From an uncultured Methanosarcinales archaeon (GTDB taxonomy: Archaea; Nanobdellota; Nanobdellia; Woesearchaeales; UBA12501), in NCBI GenBank assembly GCA_964343705.1, contig CAYFJX010000004.1, positions 69,583 through 133,582 of the forward strand: DNA of 64,000 nt, given 5' to 3'. The notes under the pieces are model-generated. The model did not search any database. It had not been told where the DNA came from and worked only from the letters and a program-made list of their open reading frames with translations. Position numbers and translations under genes: made by a program. Each line of letters begins with the position of its first letter. Within the stretch, counting starts at the first letter, position 1. This document shows positions 8,896 through 58,397 of this stretch, piece after piece.

Positions 8896-9630
8896 TTAGT
8901 CTTTTGACGTCATGGGTTTGGCAATCTTCCATAACAACTCAAAATGTTTTCTATATGACTCAGCAAGTTGTTTGTTCTTGATAAAAATAATCATGAGTGG
9001 TTCCCAGATCTCAATACAGACTGTATCACCAAAAATAAATGTGGGGGTTGGACTAAAATATCTTTTTGGAATTGTTCTATACTCCAAGTGGGGTTCGTCA
9101 TACACAAATGCTCCTTCCCAAGTTATGATTCTTTCATTTACCCCTGCTTCTTTTTCTTTTCGAAATACTTGTTTCATTTCAATGCTAAACTTTTTTTCAA
9201 ACTCTTTTTCATCAACACCAAAGATAAGCAGCTCTTTTCCTGTTTTTACAATTTCATTGCTTAATCGTCTAAAACCTTCAATTCCTCTGAATACTTCTAC
9301 GGTGCCTTCATGTTTTTCGTGTTTTTGTAAATTAATTAGTTTATTAAAGACTGTTTTGAGGTTTTCTTTTTTGCTTTCAAGCAGTTCAAAGAGTTTGTCT
9401 GGGTGTGCTGCGGTGTACACATGGGTGCCATGTTCTATTATGTCACTCACTAATCCTTTATTGCCCAGTTTTTCAAGAAAATCGTAGATTGTTGTTCTGT
9501 GCAGGTTTGTTGCTCGTTTTATGTTGTGAACATTACTTGGTCCAAGCTTGAGCAAGGCGAGGTATACTTTGGTCTCGCCAGTGCTTAGTCCAAGCTCATT
9601 GAGCACCTCATTGAGGGCATTCTCCATCAT
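8896..9630 (-). CDS. TrmB-family transcriptional regulator (HTH + C-terminal effector domain)
   Basis: N-terminal wHTH (LSTGETKVYLALLKLGPSNVHNIKRATNLHRTTIYDFLEKL), 244 aa. A truncated paralog lies at 23097..23399. Confidence 0.65.
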   Translation of the reverse strand: MMENALNEVLNELGLSTGETKVYLALLKLGPSNVHNIKRATNLHRTTIYDFLEKLGNKGLVSDIIEHGTHVYTAAHPDKLFELLESKKENLKTVFNKLINLQKHEKHEGTVEVFRGIEGFRRLSNEIVKTGKELLIFGVDEKEFEKKFSIEMKQVFRKEKEAGVNERIITWEGAFVYDEPHLEYRTIPKRYFSPTPTFIFGDTVCIEIWEPLMIIFIKNKQLAESYRKHFELLWKIAKPMTSKD

Positions 9631-9761: not shown

Positions 9762-10718
9762 ATGGCGCTTGAACGACTTATTTTGTGGAAACCCCTTCAA
9801 AAAACAACATTGGTCATGTATGCACTGGTGTTTTTTCTAGCCTTGCCTGCACCTAAACTAGCAACATTACTGCTGTTTGGTATTGTGGCGTTGTGGAGTC
9901 GAATTCCTGCAATGATGACTATGTTCACTCGTGACGTTGAAGTTGTTGACTTCTTTACTGTTATTATCGCAATCAATATGGGTGGCTTGGTTGCTGCATT
10001 ATTTGGCTCCTTACTTATTTTGTTTTCACGAATATTCGGGCCACTAGAAGATCTAGATTATACTATTAAGGAAAGTGTCTGCTTTTTTGTCGGTGCATTC
10101 TTTTCCTTAGCTGTGCATAACTTGTTTGGGAATGTGATGTGGACTATGTTTTCGTTCACGTTTATTAGGTATGGGTTTTATCCGGTGCTTGACTTGGTAA
10201 CAACACCGGGGAAAGTGTGGTTGACAGTAATAATTCTTGTGGTAAGTGCTCCTGTTGCCGTAATTTCAAACTTGTTGTTAGTGAACTTGTTTGGTGATGC
10301 GCTAGATGCGATTTTTGCAAAAGGGGCAGTACTAAGTTGGGAACTGTTGTTGTTTGTTACTGCTGTTATTGCTGGATTCTTTTTTGTGAGCAAATTTTTG
10401 TTTCGCGAAGAGCAGAAACGTGTAGAGTCTTATGGGGGTGATTTTGCAGAAAGCATGGCCAGTATTCCAGAACCGCATGAAGCATTGTTTAGTATGTTTA
10501 CCATTCCAGACGTCAACCCCTTCTTGTACGTCACACCAAATCTGTTTAAGGGATTCATGACAGTGATACTATTTATCCTTGTTCTTGTTGCAGGTTTTCA
10601 AACAGGTGTTACAGTCAACTGGGTGCAGATGGTATTCTTGCTGGTTAGTATCTATGCTGTTTTGTCGTCTGTAATCTGGGCGTTGAACAAAACAGTGGTT
10701 AAGAAAACATTGTATTAG
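9762..10718 (+). CDS. Polytopic membrane protein (about 8 TM helices), unknown function
   Basis: Hydrophobic helices throughout. No catalytic motifs recognised. Confidence 0.5.
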   Translation: MALERLILWKPLQKTTLVMYALVFFLALPAPKLATLLLFGIVALWSRIPAMMTMFTRDVEVVDFFTVIIAINMGGLVAALFGSLLILFSRIFGPLEDLDYTIKESVCFFVGAFFSLAVHNLFGNVMWTMFSFTFIRYGFYPVLDLVTTPGKVWLTVIILVVSAPVAVISNLLLVNLFGDALDAIFAKGAVLSWELLLFVTAVIAGFFFVSKFLFREEQKRVESYGGDFAESMASIPEPHEALFSMFTIPDVNPFLYVTPNLFKGFMTVILFILVLVAGFQTGVTVNWVQMVFLLVSIYAVLSSVIWALNKTVVKKTLY

Positions 10719-11071
10719 CTGCCAAGTTCAATTTCTATTTTCTTTTTGTCAACAGGAAAAATACGAGCTTGGTCTTTAACTTTAATCCCTGTAAATTTTG
10801 CAATTTCAGGGGGAATACGTACTACAAGTGAATTCCCTGACTTTCCAATATTAATTTTTTGATCAAGGCCAAAGAGTTTTTTCTTTTTTACTTCTTTTTC
10901 TATCTCTTCAAGTGTTGTGTCATCTAAGAATTCGCTATTGCATGAAGTACAGATTTCACATTCTCTTTCACCAAAGTCAATGCCAAAGAAGTTGACACTA
11001 CAAAAGCTTTTTTTTAATACTCCTCCGCAATTACAAGGATATTCACGTATTGTTTTTTCCATTTTTACCAT
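10715..11071 (-). CDS. Zn-ribbon + AbrB/SpoVT-like DNA-binding protein (putative antitoxin/regulator)
   Basis: Two Cys pairs (CNCGG...CEICTSC), then SLVVRIPPEIAKFTGIKVKDQARI, a swapped-hairpin AbrB-like motif. Confidence 0.5.
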   Translation of the reverse strand: MVKMEKTIREYPCNCGGVLKKSFCSVNFFGIDFGERECEICTSCNSEFLDDTTLEEIEKEVKKKKLFGLDQKINIGKSGNSLVVRIPPEIAKFTGIKVKDQARIFPVDKKKIEIELGS

Positions 11072-11304
11072 GTTTTTACTGTTATTGGATATATTTTTCT
11101 TACTTTTGCTTCCTTGTTGATGTATTCTTGATATACAATGGAATAATAGCGATGGAATGCTTCTGTAAGTCCTGTCTTTTTTTGTTTATGTTTTTGTCCC
11201 ATTTGTAATGCTGTGCGAACTTCATTCATTGAAATTCCTCGAAGCCACATACGTTCAAGTGCATGCTTTACTCTTTTATGTTCCCAATTGATTTTTAGTC
11301 TCAT
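11065..11304 (-). CDS. Small basic protein, possible toxin partner of 10715..11071
   Basis: 79 aa. Overlaps the downstream gene by 7 nt. No recognisable motifs. Confidence 0.35.
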   Translation of the reverse strand: MRLKINWEHKRVKHALERMWLRGISMNEVRTALQMGQKHKQKKTGLTEAFHRYYSIVYQEYINKEAKVRKIYPITVKTW

Positions 11305-12123: not shown

Positions 12124-13809
12124 TTAGGCACTAAGTTTGTCGTCTTCATCTTCTTCAATATCATCAGCAAGTCGATCGAGGACAGTGGTTTCATCTTCTT
12201 CAGGGTGTTCATCCTCGGGCACTTCAGTATCTCCACCTGATGTATCTTCTATCTCACTATGTGCAGCCAATACGTGTCCAACCTCGTATTGCTCGGATCT
12301 TCTTTTAATGGCAGGCAAGGAGTGCATACAATGTCGTGCTCGTTCATCTAGAATGATGTATTTTCCTCCAAGAAATTCAGACGTCTCTGCTCGCTGCACA
12401 GTTGGATGGTGGTATCTATGCTTTAACATTGCAATAATCCCCTGGTCTAACTCGTCATGTGAAACAAATTTTCCTTCCTTGCTTGGAACCATACCGCCCC
12501 TTTGTAAACTGTACTTTGGCAAGAGCTCAAGTAATTCTCTACTCATCCATGGTTGGGGTGACACATGATACAATCCTTCAGCTTCTTGTATAAGTGTAAG
12601 TGCATCACCAAGTGGCATGTAAGCAAGCTCATCAAGATCAGGCAGCATGTCCTCTAAAACTTCTTCAACATATTGACCACTAAAATATAATGCACCCATA
12701 AACTCAACTGGTCTGCAACTAACAACAGCATCCTCAATTAAGCTTTCAGTAAACCGAACGCGGGACCGCTGAGCCTTATGGTGAACCAAATCAACAACAT
12801 CTGAAATAGTAAGTACATACATCTTCTGTATTAGCCCTTCATATGCTTCAACCAGTTTTGCCTTCGGTACAACAATCTTATCAGTTGGAGCAACAAACCC
12901 CATGACTTCTTTAAGTGCTTTGCGCATTGCCAGGCCAGAAATACCTGTGTCAACAGCATATTTTAACCTACGTGTTATCTGAGTGTATTCACTTGAATCA
13001 ATCAAATGTCCATAGTTGTCAAAAATCTCCCCACTGAGTTCACGTTCTTCTTCTATGTCATCAACAATGTCATCATCCATCTCACCCATACGTTCTTGTA
13101 ACTGCTTGTCTAATGAGGGGTCAGAAGTGCTTAGTGTCTTGTCAGTTTGTGCATGTGGATTCTTCGGTTTTCCAGCTTCTTCAATCGTTGCCCGCCTTTG
13201 TATTCGTCGTTCATTGTAGAACGTACTAACATCTAATTCACCTTCAACCTTTTTTTGTATTGTTCGTATTCTATCACCTTGTAAAAATTGCCGCTTCCGC
13301 AATGTAACTTGTTCTGTTGAATAAAAAAGAATTAATTCTGGATAGCTAGCATCCAAGACTTCCTCTGTGCCATTCCAGTGCTGGTATGTCCGAGGTATGC
13401 CAAGAGCAGCTGCTGCCACATCCTCAAGTAGAAAATCAAACTGGTCTGGACGTATCTTTCCATCTGTGACTGACAGTACTTCTCTTTCACCTAAATAATG
13501 AATACGCTCCTGCAAAAGACCAGGGGGGATTGGTACAAACCCAAGCTTAGGGATTTTCAAGGAATCAATTGGGATACTTTTCAATTGTTTTCCTAGTCCA
13601 GGGCTAAATCGTGTCAGTGCTGCCATTACTGATGCAGCATAATATGCAGTAGGCTTTCCAGGTTCTCGCAGCGCAAAAGCACCTTCAACATAAGGCAGAA
13701 GACCTTGCTCCTTTAATGTTTCTTCAGTTACTGTTTCCAGCGGCTGCCGAGAGTAAGCAAAACTCTTTGCATTGACCCCTGTTATAGTAACATCTAAAAT
13801 TTCTCCCAT
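12124..13809 (-). CDS. Hypothetical protein with a strongly acidic C-terminal tail; partner of the upstream GHKL ATPase
   Basis: 561 aa with no known motifs. C-terminus is DTSGGDTEVPEDEHPEEDETTVLDRLADDIEEDEDDKLSA. It is 93 nt downstream of the GHKL gene on the same strand. Confidence 0.5.
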   Translation of the reverse strand: MGEILDVTITGVNAKSFAYSRQPLETVTEETLKEQGLLPYVEGAFALREPGKPTAYYAASVMAALTRFSPGLGKQLKSIPIDSLKIPKLGFVPIPPGLLQERIHYLGEREVLSVTDGKIRPDQFDFLLEDVAAAALGIPRTYQHWNGTEEVLDASYPELILFYSTEQVTLRKRQFLQGDRIRTIQKKVEGELDVSTFYNERRIQRRATIEEAGKPKNPHAQTDKTLSTSDPSLDKQLQERMGEMDDDIVDDIEEERELSGEIFDNYGHLIDSSEYTQITRRLKYAVDTGISGLAMRKALKEVMGFVAPTDKIVVPKAKLVEAYEGLIQKMYVLTISDVVDLVHHKAQRSRVRFTESLIEDAVVSCRPVEFMGALYFSGQYVEEVLEDMLPDLDELAYMPLGDALTLIQEAEGLYHVSPQPWMSRELLELLPKYSLQRGGMVPSKEGKFVSHDELDQGIIAMLKHRYHHPTVQRAETSEFLGGKYIILDERARHCMHSLPAIKRRSEQYEVGHVLAAHSEIEDTSGGDTEVPEDEHPEEDETTVLDRLADDIEEDEDDKLSA

Positions 13810-13902
13810 CTGCCATAAGCTCCTGTGTTACACTACTTGTAGTGCTTCATGCTATAAATAAATACCTATTCTTGAATGCTAGCGGACTATACATTTCAAT
13901 CT

Positions 13903-16455
13903 CTAAACACGAACATGACCTAAAATAATATTTTCAGACTCAGCAACCCTTTGCATTGCATCAGCTTGATCCAGGCCACCTTGTATTAATGTGGCAACTG
14001 CATTGGTGAGAGGAAGATAGCCTAAGCTATCAAGCACAGCACTTCGGTCACCAGGCGTTTGTAACGCTTCCCCGGCATGGTCTAGCAAACGGTTGTACAA
14101 CATGTTTACATGCTTCCGTAACATACGAGGGTTGTTCACATTACCAAACATAACTCCACTTTTAAACCCAAACTCTACTAACTCTACGTCATCATCTGTG
14201 GTATATATTGTTGGATCAACTACAGTCATGTGTACTGACGCAGTTTGTTTTCCATAACAGAAAGAGCTTATTTCTAGACCATGTGCCAAAATTGCTGGTA
14301 CACCCTTGTTTGCTGAGCCAATCTGACGTAATCGTTGTCGAACTGCACTAATGTTTTTGCGTGTGTGTTCAGCAATCTCCTCTGCTGTAAGCACTGCATC
14401 AAGAGGGTATTCCTTTCCATTAAACACAACTCCTGTTGCATTAATTGCTCCTTTGTCAATAAGATCTTGAACATAGCGTTGTGTAAAATTATCACTGTAG
14501 GCACGCACTATGTCCAGTACAGCTTCATCTCCTTCTGTGTTTACATCTTCTAACTCATACCCTATAAGATTGCCTACTCTGTCCTCTTCAGGATCAAGCT
14601 CAACACTTGTTTTTCCTTTAAATCGTCGCTGATATGAAACAGGTAACTCATCAGTTAATGTTCCTTCTGCAAGAAGATGCACCAACTCTCCAAGATTTTC
14701 TTTAGGGAAGGTGTAAATTGGATGACTTCGAACTCTTGAAACATTCTTAACATACTTTGGCAGCTTTTTTGCTTTCTTAAGCTTTTCAATTTCTTTTGTT
14801 GCACGAGCCATGTGTGTTCTTCTAAAGTTAAATTCATCTGTTCCTTCTGGAACAGGCACATGTCGCACTCCTTCATGCAGAGTTACTTTGCCATCAAGGG
14901 TTTCAAGTAATGCTGACAAGTCCTTTCCTAAATATGTTTTTTCTCGGTATGGTTCAATAAGTCCTGCTTCTGCAAACCGTTTCAGCATCCACGCAGGATA
15001 CGTACGTGCTGTTGCATCACGCTGTTCATACAATCTATTGGGGTTTATGCTTTTTCTTGCTCTTTCTTGTTCTGGGGTTGTTTGTCCAGGTAAAATATTT
15101 GCCAGTCGTCGTCTTTCTCTACCACGTCCTATTTCCAGGTCAGTAAAAGCAGAAACTGCAGCTTCAGTTTTCTCATGGTCTTCAGATTCAAGTTTGCTAA
15201 AAGCAACAGCCATAACACCAAGTCTTCCAAGTACCCTGCGTGTTTCAGCTGGTCGATAGGTGGCAAGATCAAATGCTCTTGAAGTAGGATTAACATACAC
15301 AATACGAGCGCTTTCAGAAACATACAAAACTTTACCTGCATGCTCTTCACTGAACACAACTTTAAAAGGTGATCCTCCATCCATAAACTCACCCATCATA
15401 GCTTCTACAGTGGGTAAGTAATCAGTTAGTACTTCCTTACACTTTGCAATTTTGTTTTCTTTTACTTTGGCACTCATGTCACGGCGAGCTTGACGTAGAA
15501 CATCATGAATAATATCGCGTACTGCTCTTCCTTTTGCTGAAGCAAAAAACTGTTCACGGTCAATGGTGATGTACTCTTCTAAATCATCTACATGGACAAC
15601 ACCATAGATCCTGCTTTTAAGATCTTGTTCAGGAATAAGATCTTCGTTTTTTCCTCCAACAGCTCTATCGTTAACTTTTGTAAAAAGACCATTATCATCT
15701 CCAAGTTTTTTTGAAGCAAGAAAAATTGTTCCATGTACGTGGCCTGCCGCGGGATCATGAACATCAATGACATATTCAAGGGGTATCCCAAGATCTCGTC
15801 GTGGAACAAGATTATCATTCACGTATATCTCTGCTAACTTTCGAGGAAGTTCATCACGAAGAAGTCGCATTAAATTCATTTCATCAATGTATGTTTCGTC
15901 ATTGAGATCCATATCAAACAGTGTCAGGCGAGCACCATGTTTTTCAGGATTACATGGTTCCCTAGATACAACCAGTCTTTTTTCAATAGTGTCAGCATCA
16001 TCAAATGTTTCAGTGACTGTGTAGTGAGTACCTTCTTTCCATGACTCAACAGTCACTCCACCCCAAAATGCTCGTATACCAAGAACAGCAACACCAAATT
16101 TTCCTGTTCTCTTTCTTCCTTCTGGAGACAAGATTTCTTCTTTTTTGACACTATCGCCAATTCTTACAAATGATGTAAGACCTTCAACATCCATTCCTCT
16201 TCCGTTACCTTCAACAATCACCTTTCCTTCATCTTGATGCAGCCAGACTTTGTATACATCTGCATCTTCATCATGCTCATTTGAACCAAGTTCAAGAATA
16301 ATACGTTTAGGATGTTTAAAAAGTGATTTTCCCACAGTGACCATGAAGTCATCACCATAGGTGCGTTGGATAACTACATCTTCAAGTGTTTGATCTCCTG
16401 TGTTTGCAGCTGTGACTGCTTCTTCATGAGCCATGGATCTTAGTGTAGTAAGCAT
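13903..16455 (-). CDS. GHKL-superfamily ATPase (Bergerat fold; MORC/HSP90-like), 850 aa
   Basis: N-box ILELGSNEHDEDAD, G1 box VEGNGRGMDVEGL and G2 box GKFGVAVLG, in the canonical order within the first ~150 aa. There is no HisKA domain. Confidence 0.6.
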   Translation of the reverse strand: MLTTLRSMAHEEAVTAANTGDQTLEDVVIQRTYGDDFMVTVGKSLFKHPKRIILELGSNEHDEDADVYKVWLHQDEGKVIVEGNGRGMDVEGLTSFVRIGDSVKKEEILSPEGRKRTGKFGVAVLGIRAFWGGVTVESWKEGTHYTVTETFDDADTIEKRLVVSREPCNPEKHGARLTLFDMDLNDETYIDEMNLMRLLRDELPRKLAEIYVNDNLVPRRDLGIPLEYVIDVHDPAAGHVHGTIFLASKKLGDDNGLFTKVNDRAVGGKNEDLIPEQDLKSRIYGVVHVDDLEEYITIDREQFFASAKGRAVRDIIHDVLRQARRDMSAKVKENKIAKCKEVLTDYLPTVEAMMGEFMDGGSPFKVVFSEEHAGKVLYVSESARIVYVNPTSRAFDLATYRPAETRRVLGRLGVMAVAFSKLESEDHEKTEAAVSAFTDLEIGRGRERRRLANILPGQTTPEQERARKSINPNRLYEQRDATARTYPAWMLKRFAEAGLIEPYREKTYLGKDLSALLETLDGKVTLHEGVRHVPVPEGTDEFNFRRTHMARATKEIEKLKKAKKLPKYVKNVSRVRSHPIYTFPKENLGELVHLLAEGTLTDELPVSYQRRFKGKTSVELDPEEDRVGNLIGYELEDVNTEGDEAVLDIVRAYSDNFTQRYVQDLIDKGAINATGVVFNGKEYPLDAVLTAEEIAEHTRKNISAVRQRLRQIGSANKGVPAILAHGLEISSFCYGKQTASVHMTVVDPTIYTTDDDVELVEFGFKSGVMFGNVNNPRMLRKHVNMLYNRLLDHAGEALQTPGDRSAVLDSLGYLPLTNAVATLIQGGLDQADAMQRVAESENIILGHVRV

Positions 16456-16583: not shown

Positions 16584-16711
16584 CCCTCCATAGCTCAATT
16601 GGTAGAGCGCAGGGCTGTAGATAAACTCACCCACCGACTAGGCATATAGCCATGAATGAAAGTGGGACAGCCGATACCTTGAGGTTCCCGGTTCGAGTCC
16701 GGGTGGGGGGA
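16584..16711 (+). tRNA. tRNA-Tyr (anticodon GTA) with a 55-nt canonical intron (37/38) at 16621..16675
   Basis: Acceptor ccctcca/tgggggg (C1:G72). D arm gctc-aattggta-gagc. Anticodon stem caggg/ccttg with loop ctGTAg|intron|a. T arm cccgg-ttcgagt-ccggg. Discriminator A. Confidence 0.75.
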
Positions 16712-16856
16712 CTCTTATTTTTTTCTTATCGTTCCGAGAGGTTGAGCTTGCGAAACCTCTCATTGCATGCTAGGATGGTAAGGAGTGCAATCTCCTTACT
16801 CTTTGGTGGGGGGACTCATTTTCTTCTTATGGTTTTAAATACCATTACTAAATTCT

Positions 16857-18167
16857 GTGGACTATATGGCTGAGGATATACTAGAAGGTCGGTTAAAAGC
16901 ACTAAAAGGCAGCAGAGCTAGAAGACAGTTCCTTGAAGGACTATATGAAGAAGTGTGTAGACTAGAAGGTAATTTTAATTTTCCTTACATTGCTGTTGAA
17001 GCATTAGGTCAATTAGTACTGGATCTTACTAAGAAGCGGGAAAGAGGCAAGACCCCAACAGCAAAGAAGACGACTGTTGTGCTTAATACAACTCACTCTT
17101 TTAGATCCCAACCTGTTTTTGATACGCACCACAATCGGTTTGTATACTTTGCTCATTTTCTTGGAAACCAACACAGGCTTTACAATGATTCCTCTGGTAA
17201 TCCTGACCCCTCACCTTTGGAGGCAGTAGCACAAGTAGAAGGTAGAACCACCCGATACACGTTTCTAACTCCAGAGGGCTTACAGCAAAAAATATTTGAA
17301 ACAGATATGTATGAACCAGTACGGAGGATGCCCTCTTCAGTCTTTGCATCATCAGTAGGTGTAGCAACAAGAAAAGCAAACGCCAATGGCTCAATCAATT
17401 TCCGAAACGAATTATATGCCTTTGGCACTAGTCATAAAGGGAAAGATGTTCTTGTCTTTTACGCCCCAGGAGACAAATGCTACTTTTTTGATTTGTGGGG
17501 TGAGATGTTATTTGAGCGACTTAGTAATGAAGAGGTAATCCAACAGCGCAAGATACAAAAAATGCTTGCCATACAGGATGAGATGGAAGATCTTGATAGT
17601 CTTGATAGTAGCTCTGAGCTGCTTTATGCACAACTGAAAGAAGAATGGTCAAAAGATCCCCAAGAGTTTGCAACTCATTATGGTAGGACTTATGTTATAA
17701 CAGGGGAAGTACAAGGAACTATGAATGAGTTGGGAGAGGTTGGTTTTGCACACTTTCGAGACCAACACTTCCTTTCTCGAGTCCATGGAGCACGTGAACA
17801 TGCAGGTAAAGAAGCAAAGCTAGTTATACAAGGTCCATACATGACTGTTCATCATGAAGGGGAGATGATTAATGCTCATCGTCTTGGAGGTATCATTTAT
17901 TACACTAAAACAATGCGGCGGGTTAACAATGCTCACCTTGTTAATATCAGAACTGTTGGTAACACAAAACAACTCAAGCGTGATATCTCTGGTTCTCTTT
18001 ATCATTTCTCTATGCGTGCGTTTAAGAAAGAGTATTCTGGGGACCTTAAAGAAGCGCAAGCAGTGGGGATTATTGTTGACACACAACGAGAAAAGTATGA
18101 AGCTCTTATTATAGAAAAAGATGGTGCTTTTGTTAGTGTGCCATTGCAACTACATGCTGTGTATTAA
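16857..18167 (+). CDS. Hypothetical protein
   Basis: 436-aa ORF with no recognisable motifs. The true start may be internal. Confidence 0.4.
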   Translation: MDYMAEDILEGRLKALKGSRARRQFLEGLYEEVCRLEGNFNFPYIAVEALGQLVLDLTKKRERGKTPTAKKTTVVLNTTHSFRSQPVFDTHHNRFVYFAHFLGNQHRLYNDSSGNPDPSPLEAVAQVEGRTTRYTFLTPEGLQQKIFETDMYEPVRRMPSSVFASSVGVATRKANANGSINFRNELYAFGTSHKGKDVLVFYAPGDKCYFFDLWGEMLFERLSNEEVIQQRKIQKMLAIQDEMEDLDSLDSSSELLYAQLKEEWSKDPQEFATHYGRTYVITGEVQGTMNELGEVGFAHFRDQHFLSRVHGAREHAGKEAKLVIQGPYMTVHHEGEMINAHRLGGIIYYTKTMRRVNNAHLVNIRTVGNTKQLKRDISGSLYHFSMRAFKKEYSGDLKEAQAVGIIVDTQREKYEALIIEKDGAFVSVPLQLHAVY

Positions 18168-18177
18168 TAGAATGCAT

Positions 18178-20484
18178 TTAACGTGCTTCAACCCAAGCTT
18201 GATATTGATCATGGCGTTCTTTTACATCAGCCATCAATGAGGCAACTGCATCTTGTTTATCACCAGGATGACCAGGAATAAAGTTTGCAGCATTGGTGTG
18301 GTTTACAACTATTAAATTATGTTTTCCTACTGGGAGAATTAAAGAAGGTGTTTCTTGGGCACGCTTCATGATTTCATCTGACCCCACATAGGTTTTCTCA
18401 TGGCTTGCTATGTTCCTAATAGAGTACACTGCAAAGGGTCCGTCTTCACCATTTATTACAGGTGTTGTTTGTAGCCATGCCTGAAGTTCAAGAGGATTTC
18501 CAACCTGCCCAAGATCAGGTGCAGTTACATAAAATATATGTCGTTTGCGTTGATTTCCAATTGTTTGCTTATACACTTCTCCTTTCTTAAGTATGTCATC
18601 TACTCTCCCTCTTGTTATACCTTTTGCTTCACGGAGCTCTTTTGCTGTTACAAGCACTAATCCTTGATGATAATGTATTGCTTGAACCCTTCCAGTAGAC
18701 AGTGGCTCCTCGAGAGTTGGCTCGTGTTGTATAAGAGTGCCATCTGGTTCCATCTTCTGCCTCCAGCGCTGAAATTGTTCATAGCGCTGTCCAACATCAG
18801 CTAAAAGATCCTCAACAAATCCTCCTCTTTTTGTGTTGGTTGATACAAAGTGGCGAGCATTGTCTTTGTTAACAATGAAATATTTGCTTGCTCTTTGTTC
18901 TGAGTGTGTACCAATCACTCTTATTAGGTCTTGTTCAAAAACTTTTTCTAATGCTTCTACAGTTTTCATTCCTGGGATAGTGCCAAGTCTCACTGTGTTA
19001 TATAATGCAAAGGGTGTGTCTATACCAACAAAACGATTTGCCTTAACTTCGGAGAGAAGCTCATTATAACTTGATCCATGGCGTTCGAAAACAGCAGGAA
19101 GTATTTCAGGAGTGAGAAAGTAAACACGTATTGGTCGTTTCTCACCAAACTCTTCAGCATACAATAATCCTCCTTCAATAAGCCTTTGTAATTCCTTGCG
19201 GTTTTTGGTGTCCTTAATTTTGTGGAATACAACGTGGGTTATAGGGAAAAATCCATCTTGGTAACATGCGTCAACCTCATTGTTAAGTGATAAGGTTATT
19301 GAGGGGTTAGTTTTAGGTGGTTCCGGTTCTGTATTTGTTTTTTCTTCAAGACTTGCTGCTTCAGTAGGGGTAGCTGGTATACGAACTGCTGACAAAGCAG
19401 ATATTTCATCTACCTCTCCTGCATCATTCTGTTCTAGTTCTTCATCATGTTGCTCTTCATCAAGTCCTGCTTCATATGCTTCTAATGCTTTTAATTTTTC
19501 CCACAAGTTTTTCCTACTGATTCCAAGGAGTTTGGCAGCTTCTGCTTTTCTTCCTCCTGTGTGGGCGAGTGCAATTTTGATATAGCTAAGCTCTGCCTCA
19601 CGCATAACTTCTACCAACGGTCGAAATCCTCGACGTCTTCTGTATGTTTGTCCACCTGTTAAATCAAGAGAGTTTTGGTCAAAAATAATATGTTGCGCTC
19701 TGAGGCTTTCTCCGTCACTCAAGAGCACTGCCCGTTCAATAATATTTTCTAACTCCCTAACATTCCCACCCCACTCATAATTTTGTAAAATCACAGCTGC
19801 GTTTCCATCAATGCTAGTGACTCTTGTGCCATATTTTTTATTATTCTTAGCAACAAGATATGCGGCAATATCCAAAAGGTCACTTCCCCTATCTCGTAAG
19901 GGAGGTACATGTAATGGGAATACATTCAGTCGGTGAAATAGGTCTTGCCGAAACGTCCCTTTTTCAATTTCCTGCACAAGATCCTTATTTGTTGCTGCAA
20001 GCACACGTACATCAATAGATGCTGTTTGAGTTGCACCAACGGGGACTACTTCTCGTTCTTGTAACACATTAAGCAGCTTTGCTTGCATGTCAGGACTCAT
20101 TTCTGAAACTTCATCAAGGAATATAGTGCCTCTATCAGCTTCTCGGAAATGTCCTTTTCTTGCTTGACTTGCACCAGTAAACGCACCTTTAACATGACCA
20201 AACAATTCTGATTCCATGATTCCCTCAGGAATTGCAGGGCAATTTACATGGACAAACGGATTTTTCTTAGTTTGATTAGCTCCACTAGCATGTAATGCTT
20301 TAGCAATCAGTGTCTTCCCAGTTCCTGTTTCACCTGTAAGCAAAACACTAGCAGGCTTGCCTGCAAGAATGTTAAGAAATTGGTATAACTGCAGCATTGC
20401 AGGGCTTTTTCCTACAATCTCAAGATCTCCATTAATTTTGTAGATTCCCTGCTCAGCGTCATAATTGGCAATATCTCCTGTCAT
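18178..20484 (-). CDS. Sigma-54-interaction-domain AAA+ ATPase (bEBP-like, GAFTGA motif) + Fis-type HTH + duplicated C-terminal domain
   Basis: Walker A is LLTGETGTGKTLIAKA. ESELFGHVKGAFTGAS is the GAFTGA signature. Also has RVLAATNKDL...FRQDLFHRLNVFPLHVPPLRDR and the HTH GGRKAEAAKLLGISRKNLWEKLK. The last ~300 aa form two repeats of about 130 aa (..ADVGQRYEQFQRW.. / ..ADVKERHDQYQAW..). Confidence 0.75.
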   Translation of the reverse strand: MTGDIANYDAEQGIYKINGDLEIVGKSPAMLQLYQFLNILAGKPASVLLTGETGTGKTLIAKALHASGANQTKKNPFVHVNCPAIPEGIMESELFGHVKGAFTGASQARKGHFREADRGTIFLDEVSEMSPDMQAKLLNVLQEREVVPVGATQTASIDVRVLAATNKDLVQEIEKGTFRQDLFHRLNVFPLHVPPLRDRGSDLLDIAAYLVAKNNKKYGTRVTSIDGNAAVILQNYEWGGNVRELENIIERAVLLSDGESLRAQHIIFDQNSLDLTGGQTYRRRRGFRPLVEVMREAELSYIKIALAHTGGRKAEAAKLLGISRKNLWEKLKALEAYEAGLDEEQHDEELEQNDAGEVDEISALSAVRIPATPTEAASLEEKTNTEPEPPKTNPSITLSLNNEVDACYQDGFFPITHVVFHKIKDTKNRKELQRLIEGGLLYAEEFGEKRPIRVYFLTPEILPAVFERHGSSYNELLSEVKANRFVGIDTPFALYNTVRLGTIPGMKTVEALEKVFEQDLIRVIGTHSEQRASKYFIVNKDNARHFVSTNTKRGGFVEDLLADVGQRYEQFQRWRQKMEPDGTLIQHEPTLEEPLSTGRVQAIHYHQGLVLVTAKELREAKGITRGRVDDILKKGEVYKQTIGNQRKRHIFYVTAPDLGQVGNPLELQAWLQTTPVINGEDGPFAVYSIRNIASHEKTYVGSDEIMKRAQETPSLILPVGKHNLIVVNHTNAANFIPGHPGDKQDAVASLMADVKERHDQYQAWVEAR

Positions 20485-20505: not shown

Positions 20506-21234
20506 TTAAGTGTTTCTGGTCTGTCCAACCATCTCTTTATAACAGTGATCCATGATGAACTTTAAATTCTCAATATCTTCTTTGTTATACTCCACTAACA
20601 ACTCTAAATACTCACGATCGCCACTGGCATGAAATGCTTTCCATAAGTCAACTGGATTGCCTCTTAGATTTTGTGGTCGTTGCAAGCCAAGCAGTTCTTC
20701 AACAACTTTTAATCCACCTTTCAAACCAAGTTTGACACACAGTGGTTTCAAATCAATGTGTGGTCCATTAAATTGTATGTTAAATTGCTTTCTTAATTTT
20801 GGAAGATCAAACGCTCCACCATTAAACGTCACGAGCACTTTAAACTGATCAAGTACTTTTTGCACCAGTGCAGCATCAAGATTAGCACCTGCAACAAACA
20901 CCTTAGTATCATAATAATTAGAAATGCCCACTATGGTTATCTCACCGCGTGAGTCTGTTTCAATATCAACAAAGCCAACATCATCACGAAAGTGCTCATA
21001 CAAACGCCAGTGCTCTGTACTGGGAAAACACCTAAAGAATGTTGCATCATCTGCAACAAGTGCATCCTGTGCCTCCTGGATCTTTCTGTCATAATGTGCT
21101 TTGCGTCCAGCAGAAAACCCTTTAATCTCACCAGCACGCAAGAAATCAGCCCAGTCAGTAATACCTTGCTTCCAAAGCTGGCGCTCTTTGCCAGCTCCGA
21201 TCTTATCCAGAAATACAAACGTGTTTCGTATCAT
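20506..21234 (-). CDS. RNase H-like 3'-5' exonuclease (YprB/DnaQ-like fold)
   Basis: FVDIETDSRGEITIVGI and FNGGAFDLPKL match the Exo I and Exo II motifs. It is 22 nt upstream of the AAA+ gene on the same strand. Confidence 0.55.
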   Translation of the reverse strand: MIRNTFVFLDKIGAGKERQLWKQGITDWADFLRAGEIKGFSAGRKAHYDRKIQEAQDALVADDATFFRCFPSTEHWRLYEHFRDDVGFVDIETDSRGEITIVGISNYYDTKVFVAGANLDAALVQKVLDQFKVLVTFNGGAFDLPKLRKQFNIQFNGPHIDLKPLCVKLGLKGGLKVVEELLGLQRPQNLRGNPVDLWKAFHASGDREYLELLVEYNKEDIENLKFIMDHCYKEMVGQTRNT

Positions 21235-23096: not shown

Positions 23097-23399
23097 TTAT
23101 GATTTCCACAACAACTCAAACTGTTTTCTAAAAGAATCAGCCATTTCATTATTTCTAATAAGAACCATCATGGGATTAACACCTGCAGTGGTTGAAATTA
23201 GAACATTCTTGCCAATAATACAAATCTCCATTGGCACACGGAACTTCTCAGGCAGCATTTTACACTGACACCCTTTGATTTTCTCAATCTTGTCCTTTTC
23301 AGTAGATGGTTCATTAAATAACATCTTTGTCTTGCCAACATTGGCATTTCCAAGTATAAGTTGTATGGCGAGCGACACCGGGTGAGCTCCCTCTTGACG
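23097..23399 (-). pseudogene. Truncated TrmB-like regulator fragment (C-terminal domain only)
   Basis: ADSFRKQFELLWKS matches the C-terminus of the 8896..9630 TrmB (AESYRKHFELLWKIA). The ORF lacks the HTH half and is only 93 aa. Confidence 0.5.
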
Positions 23400-23685: not shown

Positions 23686-23970
23686 ATGGCAAAACAACTT
23701 GTATTAAAAGTGGCAGTAAAAGAAGAGCCAGAAGGAGGCTATTCTGTAATTTGTACTGATTTAGGCGTAGCAAGCCAGGGTGAAACAGTAGATGAAGCTC
23801 TGGAAAATATTAAAGAAGCTGTTGAATTATATTTAGAAAGTGCCAAGGAATTAGGTATTATGGACGAAGTTCTTGATAAGTTAGGCCTTACTAAAGAAGA
23901 TCTTGAGAAAGGAGGTCTTTCAGTACCTAAAGTGTTTACAACAGATATTCCTGTTGAGTTGACAGCTTGA
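23686..23970 (+). CDS. hicB: HicB-family antitoxin
   Basis: YSVICTDLGVASQGETVDEALENIKEAVELYLE is the HicB/UPF0150 N-domain signature. It overlaps hicA by 4 nt. Confidence 0.7.
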   Translation: MAKQLVLKVAVKEEPEGGYSVICTDLGVASQGETVDEALENIKEAVELYLESAKELGIMDEVLDKLGLTKEDLEKGGLSVPKVFTTDIPVELTA

Positions 23971-24194
23971 AACTGCCTCTTGTTTCTTCTGACAAAGTTG
24001 TGAAATGGTTAAGCAAGCGAGGATTTTCAGTTACGCGACAAAAAGGATCACATATTTCTCTTCACAAAAAAGAAGGAAATAAAACCTTATTAGTTGTTGT
24101 TCCAAGAAAAAATCCAATCAAGAAAGGAACAATGTTAAATATTTTAAAGCAGGCGGGTATAAGTAGGAAAGAATTTATTGGGGAGATTAATTAA
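23967..24194 (+). CDS. hicA: HicA-family mRNA interferase toxin
   Basis: VVKWLSKRGFSVTRQKGSHISLHKK is the HicA/YcfA motif. 75 aa. Confidence 0.7.
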   Translation: MKLPLVSSDKVVKWLSKRGFSVTRQKGSHISLHKKEGNKTLLVVVPRKNPIKKGTMLNILKQAGISRKEFIGEIN

Positions 24195-24246: not shown

Positions 24247-25608
24247 TCACGCAACTCTTCGTTCAGCTTCTGAAACAGCACGTCTTAGTACTCGATGCGG
24301 TGCTGTTTCAGGGTTGGCAAATACGTGTTGGATATCTCCCCAGCGGTACACTTGTAGTATTGCTTTATACACCTTCAGTTCATCGATGGGGCTGGCATCA
24401 GGTGCTTTTTCCTTGATTAAAGTATTGATTCTGCTAGTGGATTTTGCATACATCAATGCTAGGTTTCTTTGTGTTACTGGTGTGTCTTCATTCCACAACT
24501 CAGGTGACCAGTATTCATCTTGTTCACCATTAAAATATTTGAAAATTCTTTCTTTCATCTGAGCTGCTGAGTAATTACTTTCTACTTTTTCCTCTAACTG
24601 TGCTGTTATTGCATCAACATGAGGTGCAAGGTCTCCAAATTGGTATACTTCCACACCACCTACCATTGTTCGTTCTGAGGTAATACCACGAACTGCAAGC
24701 TCAGGAGCAACGTGCTTTGTCATTGGAGGATGAAACCACTCCTCAATATTGAAGTACTTCTTTGCATTCTTAAATTCGCCACTTTTCATACTTTCTTGAG
24801 CAGCGTCATATGCTTTTCTTAAAAAGCTTTGAACAGGAGAATGTCGAGGGAAAACTACAAAACTAGCAGCAAGATAGTGTGGAGCTCGCATCTCATACAA
24901 TGCTACTGCTGCTTCCATTTCTTGGGCCAGCGCCACTTCTTGCTCCGGAGTTAGGAGAGGTGCTTTTCCTGCTTCTCGCAACCATAATTTCACCAGGTCT
25001 TTAGTTACTGCAGCTCCTTCTTCATCTTGTCTTTGCCGGCTTTCCTTAAGTATCTTACTTTCCGGGATATTAGTCTCTGCAGCATACATTGATTCTGGAA
25101 TTTCCCCTTCATACCCCAGTGACTTCATGACTTCTTTAAGTTCTTCTTTGCTTATATCAACAGCTTCATCTTTTTCAGCTTCGTGTTCTTCATAAAAACT
25201 TTCAAGTTCATCACGAGTAGTAAATACTTGCGAAGGAGTGAAACCTTCTGCAGTCTTTTTTTCTCGGAAGTCAACTATGCTTACTCCTTTTTTTTCATAT
25301 GCAACTGTTACATGGTAGCTGTTTGGCCCTTTTTTTTTCTTGACTGGTTTTGCATTGAACATGGCTCCAGCAACAAACATACTATCACCATCTTGCATGC
25401 TGACCACAAGTGTGTCTCTAGTAAGTTGGTCAACTTGCACTTCTAAAGTGGCATACACTAAGAAATTCTTTGCATTATCAGAAGGCAGAGGTAATGTGGC
25501 CACGTATTCCTCGCCACTTTTTTGAAGGGGGATAGTGAGGTCTCCAAGAATTTTCAAATAGTCGCTTCTGCTTTGTACTGGCTCCATTATCTCAGCAGGC
25601 ATTCCCAT
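24247..25608 (-). CDS. Hypothetical protein (453 aa)
   Basis: Long ORF. Contains a short stretch resembling sigma-70 region 1.2 (LWLREAGKAPLLTPEQEVALAQ), but no further sigma regions. Confidence 0.4.
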   Translation of the reverse strand: MGMPAEIMEPVQSRSDYLKILGDLTIPLQKSGEEYVATLPLPSDNAKNFLVYATLEVQVDQLTRDTLVVSMQDGDSMFVAGAMFNAKPVKKKKGPNSYHVTVAYEKKGVSIVDFREKKTAEGFTPSQVFTTRDELESFYEEHEAEKDEAVDISKEELKEVMKSLGYEGEIPESMYAAETNIPESKILKESRQRQDEEGAAVTKDLVKLWLREAGKAPLLTPEQEVALAQEMEAAVALYEMRAPHYLAASFVVFPRHSPVQSFLRKAYDAAQESMKSGEFKNAKKYFNIEEWFHPPMTKHVAPELAVRGITSERTMVGGVEVYQFGDLAPHVDAITAQLEEKVESNYSAAQMKERIFKYFNGEQDEYWSPELWNEDTPVTQRNLALMYAKSTSRINTLIKEKAPDASPIDELKVYKAILQVYRWGDIQHVFANPETAPHRVLRRAVSEAERRVA

Positions 25609-55695: not shown

Positions 55696-55845
55696 ATGTC
55701 ACAAAAGCAATATATCATAACAAAAAAGATAGCCAAACAAGGCGATAAGGCAGTTATCTGTATTCCTGCTTTGCTTCAGGAAGAATTAAAACCTTCAACA
55801 GTTGTGAAAGTAACTATTGACGTAATTAAGGAGGCAGGGCAATGA
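55696..55845 (+). CDS. AbrB/SpoVT-like small DNA-binding protein (49 aa), first gene of a three-gene operon
   Basis: MSQKQYIITKKIAKQGDKAVICIPALLQEELKPSTVVKVTIDVIKEAGQ is a swapped-hairpin-like pattern. Its stop overlaps the next ATG (ATGA). It is too short for the ORF track. Confidence 0.45.
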   Translation: MSQKQYIITKKIAKQGDKAVICIPALLQEELKPSTVVKVTIDVIKEAGQ

Positions 55846-56897: not shown

Positions 56898-56898
56898 A

Positions 56899-57912: not shown

Positions 57913-58397
57913 AATAAAGGTTAGGTAAATCTTTATAAACACCAGCAACTTCTTTATTTTTGTCCTCATTGCTCTACTTCTTTGGTGGAACGGCATGGGC
58001 TCTACACGTCTCTTTGCTAGCGCCTCTTATTCAAGAGGACATAAAATTCAACCACAACAGCAAATGCCTGAAGTGGTGGTGCTAGAAACAGCAAGGAGGC
58101 TACTTAAGGGCGGCCTGGCTCGGTTGCAGCAACAATAACTTCAACCTTAATGCCAACAACAATCTTAACAGCAATAATACTGCTCGTGGAATAGCCCTAC
58201 CTCAGCGAGGACTTTTCTTTAAACTATTTAAGAGAGTTCTCTTCCCAATCACTAAAGCTAGTTTTCAGTTCAATAACATCATTTTCGAGATTTTTCAGTC
58301 CATCCAAAAGCTCTTTATAGTCCATACATGTCAGGTATAAATTAGAACTTTTAAAATTTTCTTCTATTTATGTTATCTAGGGTAGCTACCTGCTAGA

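What the first reader, a model, noticed from the sequence alone, without database searches (positions are those of the whole stretch)
12124..16455. Two-gene cassette: 850-aa GHKL ATPase followed by a 561-aa acidic-tailed unknown, beside a SAM methyltransferase and a tRNA
The 850-aa protein has a clean Bergerat ATP-binding fold: ELGSNEHDEDAD, NGRGMDVEGL and GKFGVAVLG. It has no histidine-kinase dimerisation domain, no MutL C-terminus and no obvious Hsp90 middle domain. It is co-oriented 93 nt upstream of a 561-aa protein with no recognisable motifs and a 40-residue poly-acidic C-terminus. It is followed by a class I MTase and a small Zn-ribbon/AbrB pair. The block lies next to tRNA-Tyr, a typical landing site for accessory and defence islands. 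MORC-like GHKL ATPases with dedicated partners are known in prokaryotic conflict systems. This pairing is not one I can assign to a described system.
Basis: partly seen in the sequence, partly recalled or inferred. Interest (0 to 1): 0.6.

Follow-up and report, generated by a model that had tools for sequence, protein, structure and literature searches.

The report
Archaeal GHKL ATPase with sigma-linked partner
The two genes form a real, conserved pair in Woesearchaeota-type archaea: a MORC/Hsp90-like ATPase and a partner whose first domain also heads a bacterial-type sigma-70 factor at the same position in a related genome, which points to transcription control rather than virus defence.

Summary
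Both ORFs, the 93-nt spacer, the acidic tail, the methyltransferase and an intron-bearing tRNA-Tyr are present. The 850-aa protein belongs to a small, mostly DPANN-archaeal family (312 cluster representatives). Its confident AlphaFold core is a GHKL ATPase plus an S5/transducer domain, like Hsp90 and MORC2, so a "middle domain" does exist. The window copy has lost two adenine-contacting residues (D83G, T175A).

The 561-aa "orphan" does have relatives. In the GHKL subfamily that shares the window's C-terminal domain, all three loci with readable downstream DNA have a tightly spaced downstream gene carrying the same ~155-aa N-domain (BLASTP E = 1e-10 and 3e-7). In a Woesearchaeota genome that gene is a full sigma-70 factor. 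Sigma-70 genes also sit beside other family members in four more archaeal loci and one bacterial locus. One member is fused to a CarD RNA-polymerase-binding domain.

Nothing supports a defence island. There are no PADLOC, phage, plasmid or viral-contig relatives. Codon usage is host-like and GC is flat. The tRNA, methyltransferase and toxin–antitoxin-like neighbours are not conserved.

Best reading: a derived member of an undescribed GHKL–sigma-70 partner module, with the mechanism inferred only.

The parts
13903..16455 (-). GHKL-S5 ATPase gene, 850 aa. Public gene calls start at Met8 (nt 16434), giving 843 aa. The first ~25 residues are not conserved.
   Evidence: ORF; identical in four assemblies; family of 312 cluster representatives; AlphaFold pLDDT 82.6
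15856..16368 (-). Bergerat (GHKL) ATP-binding domain, aa ~30-200. E55, N59, D62, G85, G87, G118 and G121 are kept; the adenine contacts are degenerate (D83G, T175A).
   Evidence: Pfam HATPase_c_3; column counts; PDB profile hits to MutL/PMS2/MORC2-3
15541..15843 (-). S5-fold transducer/'middle' domain, aa ~205-305, with the conserved G256...R264 block (GLFTKVNDRAV)
   Evidence: Foldseek to TRAP1, Hsc82 and MORC2 over 358-409 columns; motif scoring
14644..15537 (-). Family-conserved region, aa ~307-604: a 52-residue helix, an alpha/beta domain and two small helix-strand modules that may be HTH-like
   Evidence: pLDDT >90; conserved in ~30 relatives; HTH support is weak, HTH_17 in 1 of 19 members at E 5e-4
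13906..14538 (-). Subfamily-specific C-terminal domain, aa ~640-850. Found only in the window protein, P0004, P0018 and P0019. Proposed docking site for the partner.
   Evidence: Profile E 1.7e-8 (P0019) and 5e-8 (P0018); co-occurs with the partner N-domain in 3 of 3 testable loci; low pLDDT
13810..13902 (-). 93-nt spacer with an A/T-rich TATTTATTTATAG element about 40 nt upstream of the partner ATG, plus a GGAG. Co-transcription is not established.
   Evidence: Sequence read directly
12124..13809 (-). Partner gene, 561 aa, pI 4.8
   Evidence: ORF; coding score +0.27 bits/codon in frame 0 only; homologues in L113 and L114/L115
13324..13794 (-). Partner N-domain, aa ~6-162. Homologous to the N-termini of the L113 510-aa protein and the L114/L115 877-aa sigma-70 factor.
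   Evidence: BLASTP E 1e-10 and 3e-7; phmmer 1.4e-9 and 6.9e-5 against 4610 ORFs; alignment A7
12385..12804 (-). Partner domain 2, aa ~336-475. Shared only with the L113 protein.
   Evidence: BLASTP 27% identity, E 2e-8; profile search; alignment A8
12127..12267 (-). Acidic C-terminal tail, aa ~515-561. There is a second acidic patch at aa 241-256.
   Evidence: Net charge -12 to -15 per 30 residues. The L113 homologue also has an acidic stretch after domain 2 (sequence).

Best explanation
The cassette is a diverged member of an undescribed two-gene module of Woesearchaeota/DPANN archaea.

Gene 1 encodes a dimerising GHKL+S5 ATPase of the Hsp90/MORC/MutL class. After the ATPase module it has a conserved helical/HTH-like region and then a subfamily-specific C-terminal domain. 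Gene 2 encodes a partner whose ~155-aa N-domain is proposed to dock onto that C-terminal domain. In a related Woesearchaeota genome the same N-domain is the head of a complete sigma-70 factor. In other branches of the GHKL family, sigma-70 genes sit beside the ATPase gene.

The most likely mechanism is a partner switch. The ATPase holds the partner and, through ATP-driven closure of its N-terminal domains, controls whether the partner's C-terminal effector part can act on DNA or RNA polymerase. That effector part is sigma regions 2-4 in the relative, and domain 2 plus an acidic tail here.

In the window lineage the sigma regions are absent and two adenine-contacting residues of the ATPase are lost. 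This copy probably binds ATP poorly and acts mainly as a scaffold or sequestering protein.

Shown: the fold, family membership, the conserved pairing, the shared N-domain, the sigma-70 linkage. Inferred: the physical docking, the ATP-gated switching, and the transcriptional target.
For: GHKL+S5 fold: AlphaFold pLDDT >90 for aa 30-610. Foldseek finds TRAP1/HtpG/Hsc82 at E~1e-13 and MORC2 at E 4.5e-11, TM 0.51, rmsd ~5 A over ~405 columns.

Family: 312 representatives, about 30 of which share aa 24-600.

Pairing: the C-terminal domain is shared with P0004, P0018 and P0019. In L113 the GHKL gene is followed after 12 nt by a 510-aa homologue of the partner (E 1e-10 and 2e-8, colinear). In L114/L115 it is followed after 46 nt by an 877-aa protein made of the partner N-domain (E 3e-7) plus sigma-70 regions 1.2, 2, 3 and 4, all above Pfam cutoffs. 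NCBI names the host Candidatus Woesearchaeota archaeon. The N-domain occurs in none of 12 other family loci that lack the C-terminal domain.

Wider link: all nine sigma-70-family ORFs detected among 4610 ORFs of 115 loci are co-oriented with a GHKL gene and within 1.7 kb of it. Gaps are 1, 4, 4, 46 and 52 nt in L014, L013, L021, L114/L115 and L012. These loci are spread over at least 4 branches of a rough tree. One member is fused to CarD_TRCF_RID + CarD_C.

Literature: sigma-70 homologues are prevalent in Woesearchaeota, with no anti-sigma factor known (PMC8204110).

Host-like codon usage and flat GC. Degenerate ATP site in the window copy only.
Against: Only three loci support the exact pairing. 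The closest orthologue (P0004) is uninformative because both of its contigs end 22-94 nt after the gene. The partner itself has no sigma regions: no Pfam hit, and hhalign 0.7% against the sigma neighbours. The N-domain could not be shown in the sigma-70 neighbours of L007, L012, L013 and L014. About half of the family loci have no sigma-70 or partner gene nearby. Archaeal RNA polymerase is not known to use sigma factors, so the target is uncertain. The spacer may hold its own promoter.
Confidence: 0.5

Rival explanations
1. A novel two-gene conflict/defence system. A MORC-like GHKL sensor or motor works with a dedicated, rapidly evolving partner against viruses or mobile DNA.
For: The family is rare and patchy (37 representatives at E<=1e-30 among 1.84 billion). 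The partner has a constant N-domain with swapped C-terminal parts, a pattern common in conflict systems. More distant archaeal GHKL relatives pair with C5 DNA methylases, and one CPR relative sits next to a serine recombinase. Prokaryotic MORC/paraMORCs work mainly in restriction-modification systems (PMC2292703). A toxin-antitoxin-like pair and a methyltransferase lie just downstream.
Against: No PADLOC system matches; the only hit is a weak GHKL-module one. Neither protein has a nuclease, helicase, TIR or other effector domain. No relatives on phages, plasmids or viral contigs. Neighbours of relatives are ribosomal proteins, Rpo7, Drg GTPase, DNA ligase and glycosyltransferases. The methyltransferase and toxin-antitoxin genes are not conserved. 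Codon usage is host-like. The recurring partners are sigma-70 factors.
Confidence: 0.17
2. An Hsp90-type chaperone with a lineage-specific co-chaperone or client encoded next to it. The ATPase folds or matures proteins, and the sigma-70 linkage reflects a dedicated client.
For: The best Foldseek matches are Hsp90 family members (TRAP1, HtpG, Hsc82, Grp94; E 1e-13 to 1e-11). DnaJ is a neighbour of one relative.
Against: NCBIfam HSP90 scores 11 bits against a cutoff of 455, and there is no Pfam HSP90 hit. By sequence profile, MutL and MORC rank above Hsp90. TM-scores are modest (0.36-0.61 on the target). The C-terminal half does not resemble the Hsp90 dimerisation domain. The window copy has a degenerate ATP pocket.
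Confidence: 0.12
3. Two functionally unrelated neighbours. The GHKL gene acts alone, and the 561-aa gene is a lineage-specific protein that merely lies downstream.
For: The spacer contains a possible separate promoter. Many family members have no partner. The partner diverges fast (27-30% identity).
Against: The same gene order, orientation and close spacing (12, 46 and 93 nt) recur in three genomes whose GHKL proteins are only ~27-31% identical. The N-domain co-occurs with the GHKL C-terminal domain in 3 of 3 loci against 0 of 12 without it. My own hypergeometric estimate is p about 0.002, and the lineages are not fully independent.
Confidence: 0.08

Closest known systems
Prokaryotic MORC and paraMORC GHKL-S5 ATPases (Iyer, Abhiman & Aravind 2008, PMC2292703)
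   Same: An N-terminal GHKL domain fused to an S5-fold domain that supplies a conserved basic residue. HATPase_c_3 is the best Pfam model. MORC2 is a good structural match. The G...R block in the S5 domain has the MORC spacing. Distribution is sporadic, and the proteins have dedicated neighbours.
   Different: The MORC signature GhXhhpXXRhl is never fully met: the polar position is Val in 104 of 111 sequences, and the window protein meets 5 of 8 positions. No SF-II helicase, nuclease or DNA methylase accompanies the close family. The recurring neighbours are sigma-70 factors. The ~300-aa conserved region after S5 and the C-terminal domain have no described counterpart.
Hsp90 family (HtpG, TRAP1, Grp94)
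   Same: Best Foldseek E-values. The N-terminal ATPase plus the first middle-domain alpha/beta/alpha layer superpose.
   Different: No sequence-level membership. The C-terminal half is different. There is no evidence of chaperone function.
SpoIIAB/RsbW anti-sigma factor kinases (from established knowledge: Bergerat-fold proteins that bind sigma F/sigma B in a partner-switching circuit)
   Same: A Bergerat-fold protein is genetically coupled to a sigma-70-family factor. This is a functional analogy for ATP-dependent control of a sigma factor.
   Different: Those are ~145-aa HATPase_c_2 kinases with no S5 domain. No HATPase_c_2 hit was found here. This is a resemblance of logic, not of family.
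Sigma-70 homologues of DPANN archaea (Castelle et al. 2021, PMC8204110)
   Same: The same lineage (Woesearchaeota) and the same protein family as the GHKL neighbours found here. The paper states that no anti-sigma factor was found and that how they are controlled is unclear.
   Different: The paper reports no linkage to a GHKL ATPase. The window's partner has only the N-terminal extension of such a factor, not sigma regions 2-4.
Phage T4 rIIA-rIIB pair
   Same: A ~700-aa GHKL protein followed by a poorly understood partner. rIIA proteins appear among the BFVD fold matches (E ~1e-11).
   Different: The matches are no better than to any other GHKL protein (TM 0.24-0.30). There is no sequence relationship and no phage context.

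Membership tests
GHKL (Bergerat-fold) ATPase superfamily | Motif I ExxxNxxD (catalytic Glu, Mg-binding Asn) | tested here: met
   E55, N59 and D62 are present; in 111 relatives they are E in 102, N in 108 and D in 105
GHKL (Bergerat-fold) ATPase superfamily | Motif II DxGxG, whose Asp hydrogen-bonds the adenine N6 | tested here: not met
   The window has G83-N-G85-R-G87. Asp is present in 108 of 111 relatives, including P0004, P0018 and P0019. The glycines are kept.
GHKL (Bergerat-fold) ATPase superfamily | Motif III glycine-rich lid and motif IV G-T | tested here: inconclusive
   G118, G121 and G174 are kept. Thr175 is Ala, whereas T occurs in 98 of 111 relatives.
GHKL (Bergerat-fold) ATPase superfamily | Bergerat alpha/beta sandwich fold | tested here: met
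   Pfam HATPase_c_3 at 28.3 bits against a cutoff of 25; AlphaFold pLDDT >90; 619 PDB chains at E<=1e-3, all GHKL proteins among the top 50
MORC family sensu Iyer et al. 2008 | GHKL domain followed by an S5-fold domain with a conserved basic residue | tested here: met
   Foldseek to MORC2 9cdh/9cdj with TM 0.51 and rmsd 5.0-5.4 A over ~405 columns; R264 is conserved in 102 of 111 relatives
MORC family sensu Iyer et al. 2008 | GhXhhpXXRhl signature in the S5 domain | tested here: not met
   The G-to-R spacing is conserved, but the window meets 5 of 8 constrained positions, relatives meet 5-7, and none meets all 8; the polar position is never met
MORC/paraMORC restriction-modification systems | Operon with an SF-II helicase, restriction-fold/HNH nuclease or DNA methylase | tested here: not met
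   None is found next to the window gene or in 15 close-family loci. Only distant relatives (L027, L029, L055, L065, L081) pair with a C5 methylase.
paraMORC2-5 | Family-specific C-terminal features (ExxxH motif, RE-fold nuclease, TIR, HxH domain) | tested here: inconclusive
   Pfam finds no nuclease or TIR domain in 31 members. The motifs themselves were not examined.
Hsp90/HtpG | Sequence membership (Pfam HSP90 or the NCBIfam HSP90 equivalog) | tested here: not met
   NCBIfam PRK14083 scores 11 bits against a cutoff of 455; no Pfam HSP90 hit
MutL | DNA_mis_repair transducer and MutL_C dimerisation/endonuclease domains | tested here: not met
   No Pfam hit. The PDB profile matches MutL only over motifs I-II, E ~6e-7.
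Histidine kinase | HisKA/DHp dimerisation domain with a phospho-accepting His | tested here: not met
   No Pfam hit in the window protein or in the 31 aligned members
Known anti-phage defence systems (PADLOC-DB v2) | Match of both genes to the models of one system | tested here: not met
   GHKL: one weak hit, REase_II at E 5.7e-6 over aa 43-145. Partner: none.
Sigma-70 family (tested for the 561-aa partner) | Regions 2 and 4 (Pfam PF04542, PF04545) | tested here: not met
   No Pfam hit at E<=0.1; hhalign probability 0.7% against the GHKL-adjacent sigma-70 proteins
GHKL-associated N-domain proteins (a group defined here) | ~155-aa N-domain, encoded directly downstream of a GHKL gene that has the window-type C-terminal domain | tested here: met
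   Window, L113 and L114/L115: BLASTP E 1e-10 and 3e-7; phmmer 1.4e-9 and 6.9e-5; gaps of 93, 12 and 46 nt

The most novel reading that the evidence does not exclude
MORC/Hsp90-like GHKL ATPases are the missing partners of the puzzling bacterial-type sigma-70 homologues of DPANN archaea, acting either as regulators or as effectors. They hold the sigma factor through a dedicated N-domain/C-domain interface and gate it with ATP. The window cassette would be a derived end-member in which sigma regions 2-4 were replaced by a new domain plus an acidic, possibly DNA-mimicking, tail, and in which the ATPase became a pseudo-enzyme.
Probability: 0.22. Interest if true: 0.75.

Novelty: new variant of a known kind. 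Interest (0 to 1): 0.58.

Why it matters
Woesearchaeota and other DPANN archaea carry bacterial sigma-70 homologues even though they have an archaeal RNA polymerase. The only study I found that addresses this says no anti-sigma factor is known and that their control is unclear (PMC8204110). A GHKL ATPase that is repeatedly encoded next to these sigma factors, and a partner domain shared between a sigma factor and this window's "orphan", give a concrete and testable candidate for who interacts with them. The finding also adds a GHKL+S5 lineage that is linked to transcription factors rather than to restriction-modification. And it shows that an apparent ORFan can be placed by following its neighbour's relatives when direct searches fail.

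Tried and rejected
1. Direct homologue searches for the partner found nothing: the word-indexed search returned only itself, and pattern scans of GTDB genomes, JGI metagenomes, IMG/VR and phages were all empty. Relatives at 27-30% identity are beyond those methods. They turned up only through the context of GHKL relatives.

It was overturned once I restricted the comparison to GHKLs that share the C-terminal domain.

3. A shared domain among the GHKL C-terminus, the partner, the 436-aa ORF and the tail of the sigma-54-type protein: rejected by BLAST and by profile HMMs.

4. The partner as a divergent sigma-70: rejected.

5. The window's 453-aa 'region 1.2' protein as a sigma-70: it has region 1.2 only.

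6. The partner N-domain in the sigma-70 neighbours of L007, L012, L013 and L014: there is a similarity visible by eye (LETxTxxxLxxxGL...), but hhalign gives 2.7% and the reverse profile finds nothing. Rejected.

7. An HTH assignment for GHKL aa 466-604: only HTH_17 in 1 of 19 members, and no PDB hit. Left as a suggestion.

8. A single-sequence AlphaFold model of the partner: pLDDT 35, unusable.

10. A tRNA-anchored island: the duplicated tRNA 3' end lies only 103 nt downstream, on the side away from the cassette; there is no integrase and no GC shift.

11. Selection analysis from strain variants: only one substitution, so no power.

12. The 94-nt tail after the P0004 gene is uninformative.

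Full report
OBSERVATION. The window is an archaeal chromosome. It carries a thermosome, FtsZ, an archaeal-type GluRS, FKBP26 and TrmB. Its GC content is about 40% and does not change across the cassette. On the minus strand lie an 850-aa ORF (13903-16455) and a 561-aa ORF (12124-13809), separated by 93 nt. Pfam places aa 51-158 in HATPase_c_3, just above threshold (28.3 bits against 25). The 561-aa protein matches nothing in Pfam, PADLOC, NCBIfam, PHROGs or PDB sequences. Its tail is the most acidic in the window. Both ORFs show host-like codon usage in frame 0 only. Four independent assemblies of one metagenome project (PRJEB17505) give identical sequence apart from a single substitution.

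Downstream and co-oriented are a class I methyltransferase and a small DUF4258-like plus Zn-ribbon/AbrB-like pair; both members of that pair score below Pfam cutoffs. ARAGORN found no tRNA. Rfam, however, finds a tRNA at 16584-16711(+) with an intron of about 58 nt, and the anticodon loop reads CU-GUA-GA, which is Tyr. The cassette lies on the 5' side of this tRNA.

THE GHKL PROTEIN. The word-indexed search found only the protein itself. An exhaustive HMMER search found 312 cluster representatives at E<=1e-3. There is one full-length relative at 45% identity (P0004), and about 30 relatives share residues 24-600 at about 30% identity. Loci from GTDB genomes and from contig look-ups place the full-length relatives in Woesearchaeota/Nanoarchaeota-type MAGs. 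Bacterial hits share only the first 100-300 residues.

With a 111-sequence alignment, AlphaFold gives pLDDT above 90 for aa 30-610 and a poor model for aa 610-850. Foldseek against the PDB returns Hsp90-family proteins (TRAP1 4z1i_A at TM 0.61 over 358 columns; Hsc82 at rmsd 5.1 A) and MORC2 (TM 0.51, rmsd about 5 A, about 405 columns). By sequence profile the nearest solved proteins are MutL, PMS2 and MORC2/3, and only over motifs I-II.

Iyer et al. 2008 define MORCs by a GhXhhpXXRhl motif in the S5 domain. The family keeps the G-to-R spacing (window G256-R264) but never the polar position, and the window protein meets 5 of 8 constrained positions. It is MORC-like but not a strict MORC.

Two adenine-contacting positions are degenerate in the window copy alone. 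Motif II Asp83 is Gly (D in 108 of 111 relatives). Motif IV Thr175 is Ala (T in 98 of 111). P0018 and P0019 keep both residues, and P0004 keeps the Asp. From what is established about the equivalent Asp in GyrB, Hsp90 and MutL, this predicts weak or lost ATP binding. That is an inference, not a measurement.

IS THE PAIR CONSERVED? At first the answer looked like no. In twelve family loci the downstream gene varied: NUDIX, a convergent intein-bearing gene, a Drg GTPase, an FMN reductase and various unknowns. No ORF resembled the partner or any other gene of the window block. The one close orthologue, P0004, sits at a contig end in both assemblies.

The picture changed when I asked which relatives share the window's lineage-specific C-terminal domain (aa ~640-850). 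Only P0004, P0018 and P0019 do (profile E 5e-8 and 1.7e-8).

In L113 (P0019), an archaeal contig that encodes Rpo10, the GHKL gene is followed after 12 nt by a 510-aa protein with no Pfam hit. That protein aligns with the window partner in two colinear blocks: aa 22-151 with 18-148 (30% identity, E 1e-10) and aa 342-467 with 171-305 (27% identity, E 2e-8).

In L114/L115 (P0018), a 1.47-Mb contig that NCBI labels Candidatus Woesearchaeota archaeon, the GHKL gene is followed after 46 nt by an 877-aa ORF. Its first ~150 residues align with the partner's N-domain (28% identity, E 3e-7). The rest is a canonical sigma-70, with region 1.2 at 36 bits, region 2 at 76, region 3 at 37 and region 4 at 61. 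NCBI's own gene call starts later, at 550 aa, and so omits the N-domain.

A profile of the N-domain finds it in no other fetched locus. So the N-domain is present in 3 of 3 testable loci whose GHKL has the C-terminal domain, and in 0 of 12 whose GHKL lacks it. My own hypergeometric estimate is p about 0.002, and the lineages are not fully independent. Domain 2 and an acidic stretch after it are shared by the window and L113 proteins only. Neither partner domain matches any PDB sequence.

THE SIGMA-70 LINK IN THE WIDER FAMILY. An all-against-all comparison of flanking ORFs picked out one recurrent neighbour, and Pfam identifies it as a genuine sigma-70-family protein. A sigma-70 profile run over all 115 loci (4610 ORFs) detects nine ORFs in seven distinct loci. 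Every one is co-oriented with the GHKL gene and within 1.7 kb of it. The gaps are: L014, 1 nt; L013, 4 nt; L012, 52 nt; L114/L115, 46 nt; L007/L008, one intervening gene; bacterial L021, 4 nt. Bacterial L018 has an overlapping downstream gene with a borderline Sigma70_r4 hit of 24.0 bits against a cutoff of 24.1.

On rough NJ trees without support values, these loci fall on at least four branches. One family member (P0014), which lies next to an archaeal S-layer gene, carries a C-terminal CarD/TRCF RNA-polymerase-interaction domain.

Castelle et al. 2021 report that sigma-70 homologues are prevalent in Woesearchaeota, that no anti-sigma factor was found, and that their control is unclear. Literature searches found no paper linking them to a GHKL protein. 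I could not show that the sigma-70 neighbours of L007, L012, L013 and L014 carry the partner's N-domain.

AGAINST A DEFENCE ISLAND. PADLOC gives only a weak hit from the GHKL module to a restriction-enzyme model, and nothing for the partner. Neither protein has relatives on phages, plasmids or IMG/VR contigs. There is no integrase, no GC shift, and codon usage is host-like. The methyltransferase, the toxin-antitoxin-like pair and the tRNA do not accompany relatives. Neighbours of relatives are mostly housekeeping or cell-surface genes.

Some features still fit an accessory or conflict role: the family is rare and patchy, the partner is modular, and more distant GHKL relatives sit beside C5 methylases or a recombinase. 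I therefore keep this rival at about 0.17.

MECHANISM. What is shown: a GHKL+S5 ATPase family; a subfamily-specific C-terminal domain that co-occurs with a partner N-domain encoded immediately downstream; that N-domain heading a full sigma-70 in one genome; and sigma-70 or CarD linkage elsewhere in the family.

What is inferred: the C-terminal domain docks the N-domain, and ATP-driven closure of the GHKL dimer (as in Hsp90, MORC and MutL) gates the partner's effector half. This is analogous in logic, but not in family, to the Bergerat-fold anti-sigma kinases SpoIIAB and RsbW. In the window lineage the effector half is domain 2 plus an acidic tail, and the ATP pocket is degenerate, so the protein would be a scaffold-like or sequestering variant.

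It remains open whether the GHKL protein regulates the sigma-like partner or is targeted to DNA by it. The spacer has an A/T-rich TATA-like element, so co-transcription is unproven.

VERDICT. The defence and tRNA-island framing is not supported. The pair is best filed as a new variant of the GHKL+S5 (MORC/Hsp90-like) kind, tied to the unexplained sigma-70 homologues of DPANN archaea. Interest 0.58, limited by the small number of loci and the lack of any interaction or structural test of the partner.

Noticed in passing
window 16584-16711 (+) and 16702-16835: tRNA-Tyr(GUA) has an intron of about 58 nt. ARAGORN in bacterial mode misses it and Rfam finds it. The 3' end of the tRNA plus its flank (GGTGGGGGGACTC..TTTTCTTAT) is repeated 103 nt downstream. 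This looks att-like, but no element lies between the copies.
   Followed up: partly
window 18178-20484 (-): A 768-aa sigma-54-activator-type AAA+ protein in an archaeon (Sigma54_activat E 3e-65, HTH_8; PADLOC RtcR/PspF-like 1.5e-102). It has no N-terminal sensor domain and carries a ~430-aa C-terminal extension that matches no library. It is flanked by a 436-aa ORF with no library or locus homologue (16857-18167) and an RNase_H_2 protein (20506-21234).
   Followed up: partly
window 57965-58108 (+): A full-length match to Rfam RT-16 RNA (RF03019, 71.7 bits against a gathering score of 50). It lies directly after two co-oriented ORFs with no Pfam hit (55842-56897 and 56839-57912).
   Followed up: no
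window 24247-25608 (-): A 453-aa protein with an above-threshold sigma-70 region 1.2 (36.6 bits, aa 204-233) but no detectable regions 2-4. It lies about 8 kb from the GHKL gene.
   Followed up: partly
window 23097-23378 (-) and 8927-8995: A 93-aa ORF resembles the C-terminus of the TrmB regulator at 8896-9630, and the two share a 69-nt repeat at 77% identity. The two TrmB-like copies bracket the 9.6-23 kb stretch, which is rich in ORFs without library matches. It may be a decayed paralogue.
   Followed up: partly
window 23686-24194 (+) and 10715-11304 (-): Two small toxin-antitoxin-like pairs. The first is HicB-like (weak Pfam hit) plus a 75-aa ORF that looks like HicA by eye. The second is DUF4258-like plus Zn-ribbon/MazE-AbrB-like, both below Pfam cutoffs.
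   Followed up: partly
window 908-1951 (-) and 2001-3071 (-): Tandem paralogues of 347 and 356 aa, 31% identical (E 8e-38), with no Pfam hit.
   Followed up: no
L005 10521-10614; L006 4885-4906: Two independent assemblies of the closest orthologue (P0004) both end within 94 nt and 22 nt after the GHKL stop codon. The downstream sequence may be repeated or strain-variable.
   Followed up: no
L027, L029, L055, L065, L081: More distant archaeal GHKL relatives (Hodarchaeota, Micrarchaeota, Nitrosopumilaceae and others) share a homologous neighbour. The one scanned (L027) is a C5 cytosine DNA methylase (PF00145, E 1e-52). This is the classical MORC/paraMORC restriction-modification context.
   Followed up: partly
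L017 7992-12112; L034 6572-10181; L111 3352-6435: L017 has two tandem GHKL paralogues. The GHKL relative in CPR locus L034 follows a serine recombinase. P0014 (L111) fuses the GHKL core to CarD_TRCF_RID + CarD_C.
   Followed up: partly
L009 6351-6938, L011 7317-7907, L093 1298-1891: A small MTS/PrmA-type methyltransferase is divergently adjacent to the GHKL gene in three related loci that also share a Drg GTPase. It is unrelated to the window's Methyltransf_11 enzyme.
   Followed up: partly
L114 10429-13062: NCBI annotates the sigma-70 gene as 550 aa (MBI2573090.1). The 877-aa open frame upstream of that start encodes the N-domain that is homologous to the window's partner, so the annotated start is probably too far downstream.
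   Followed up: yes
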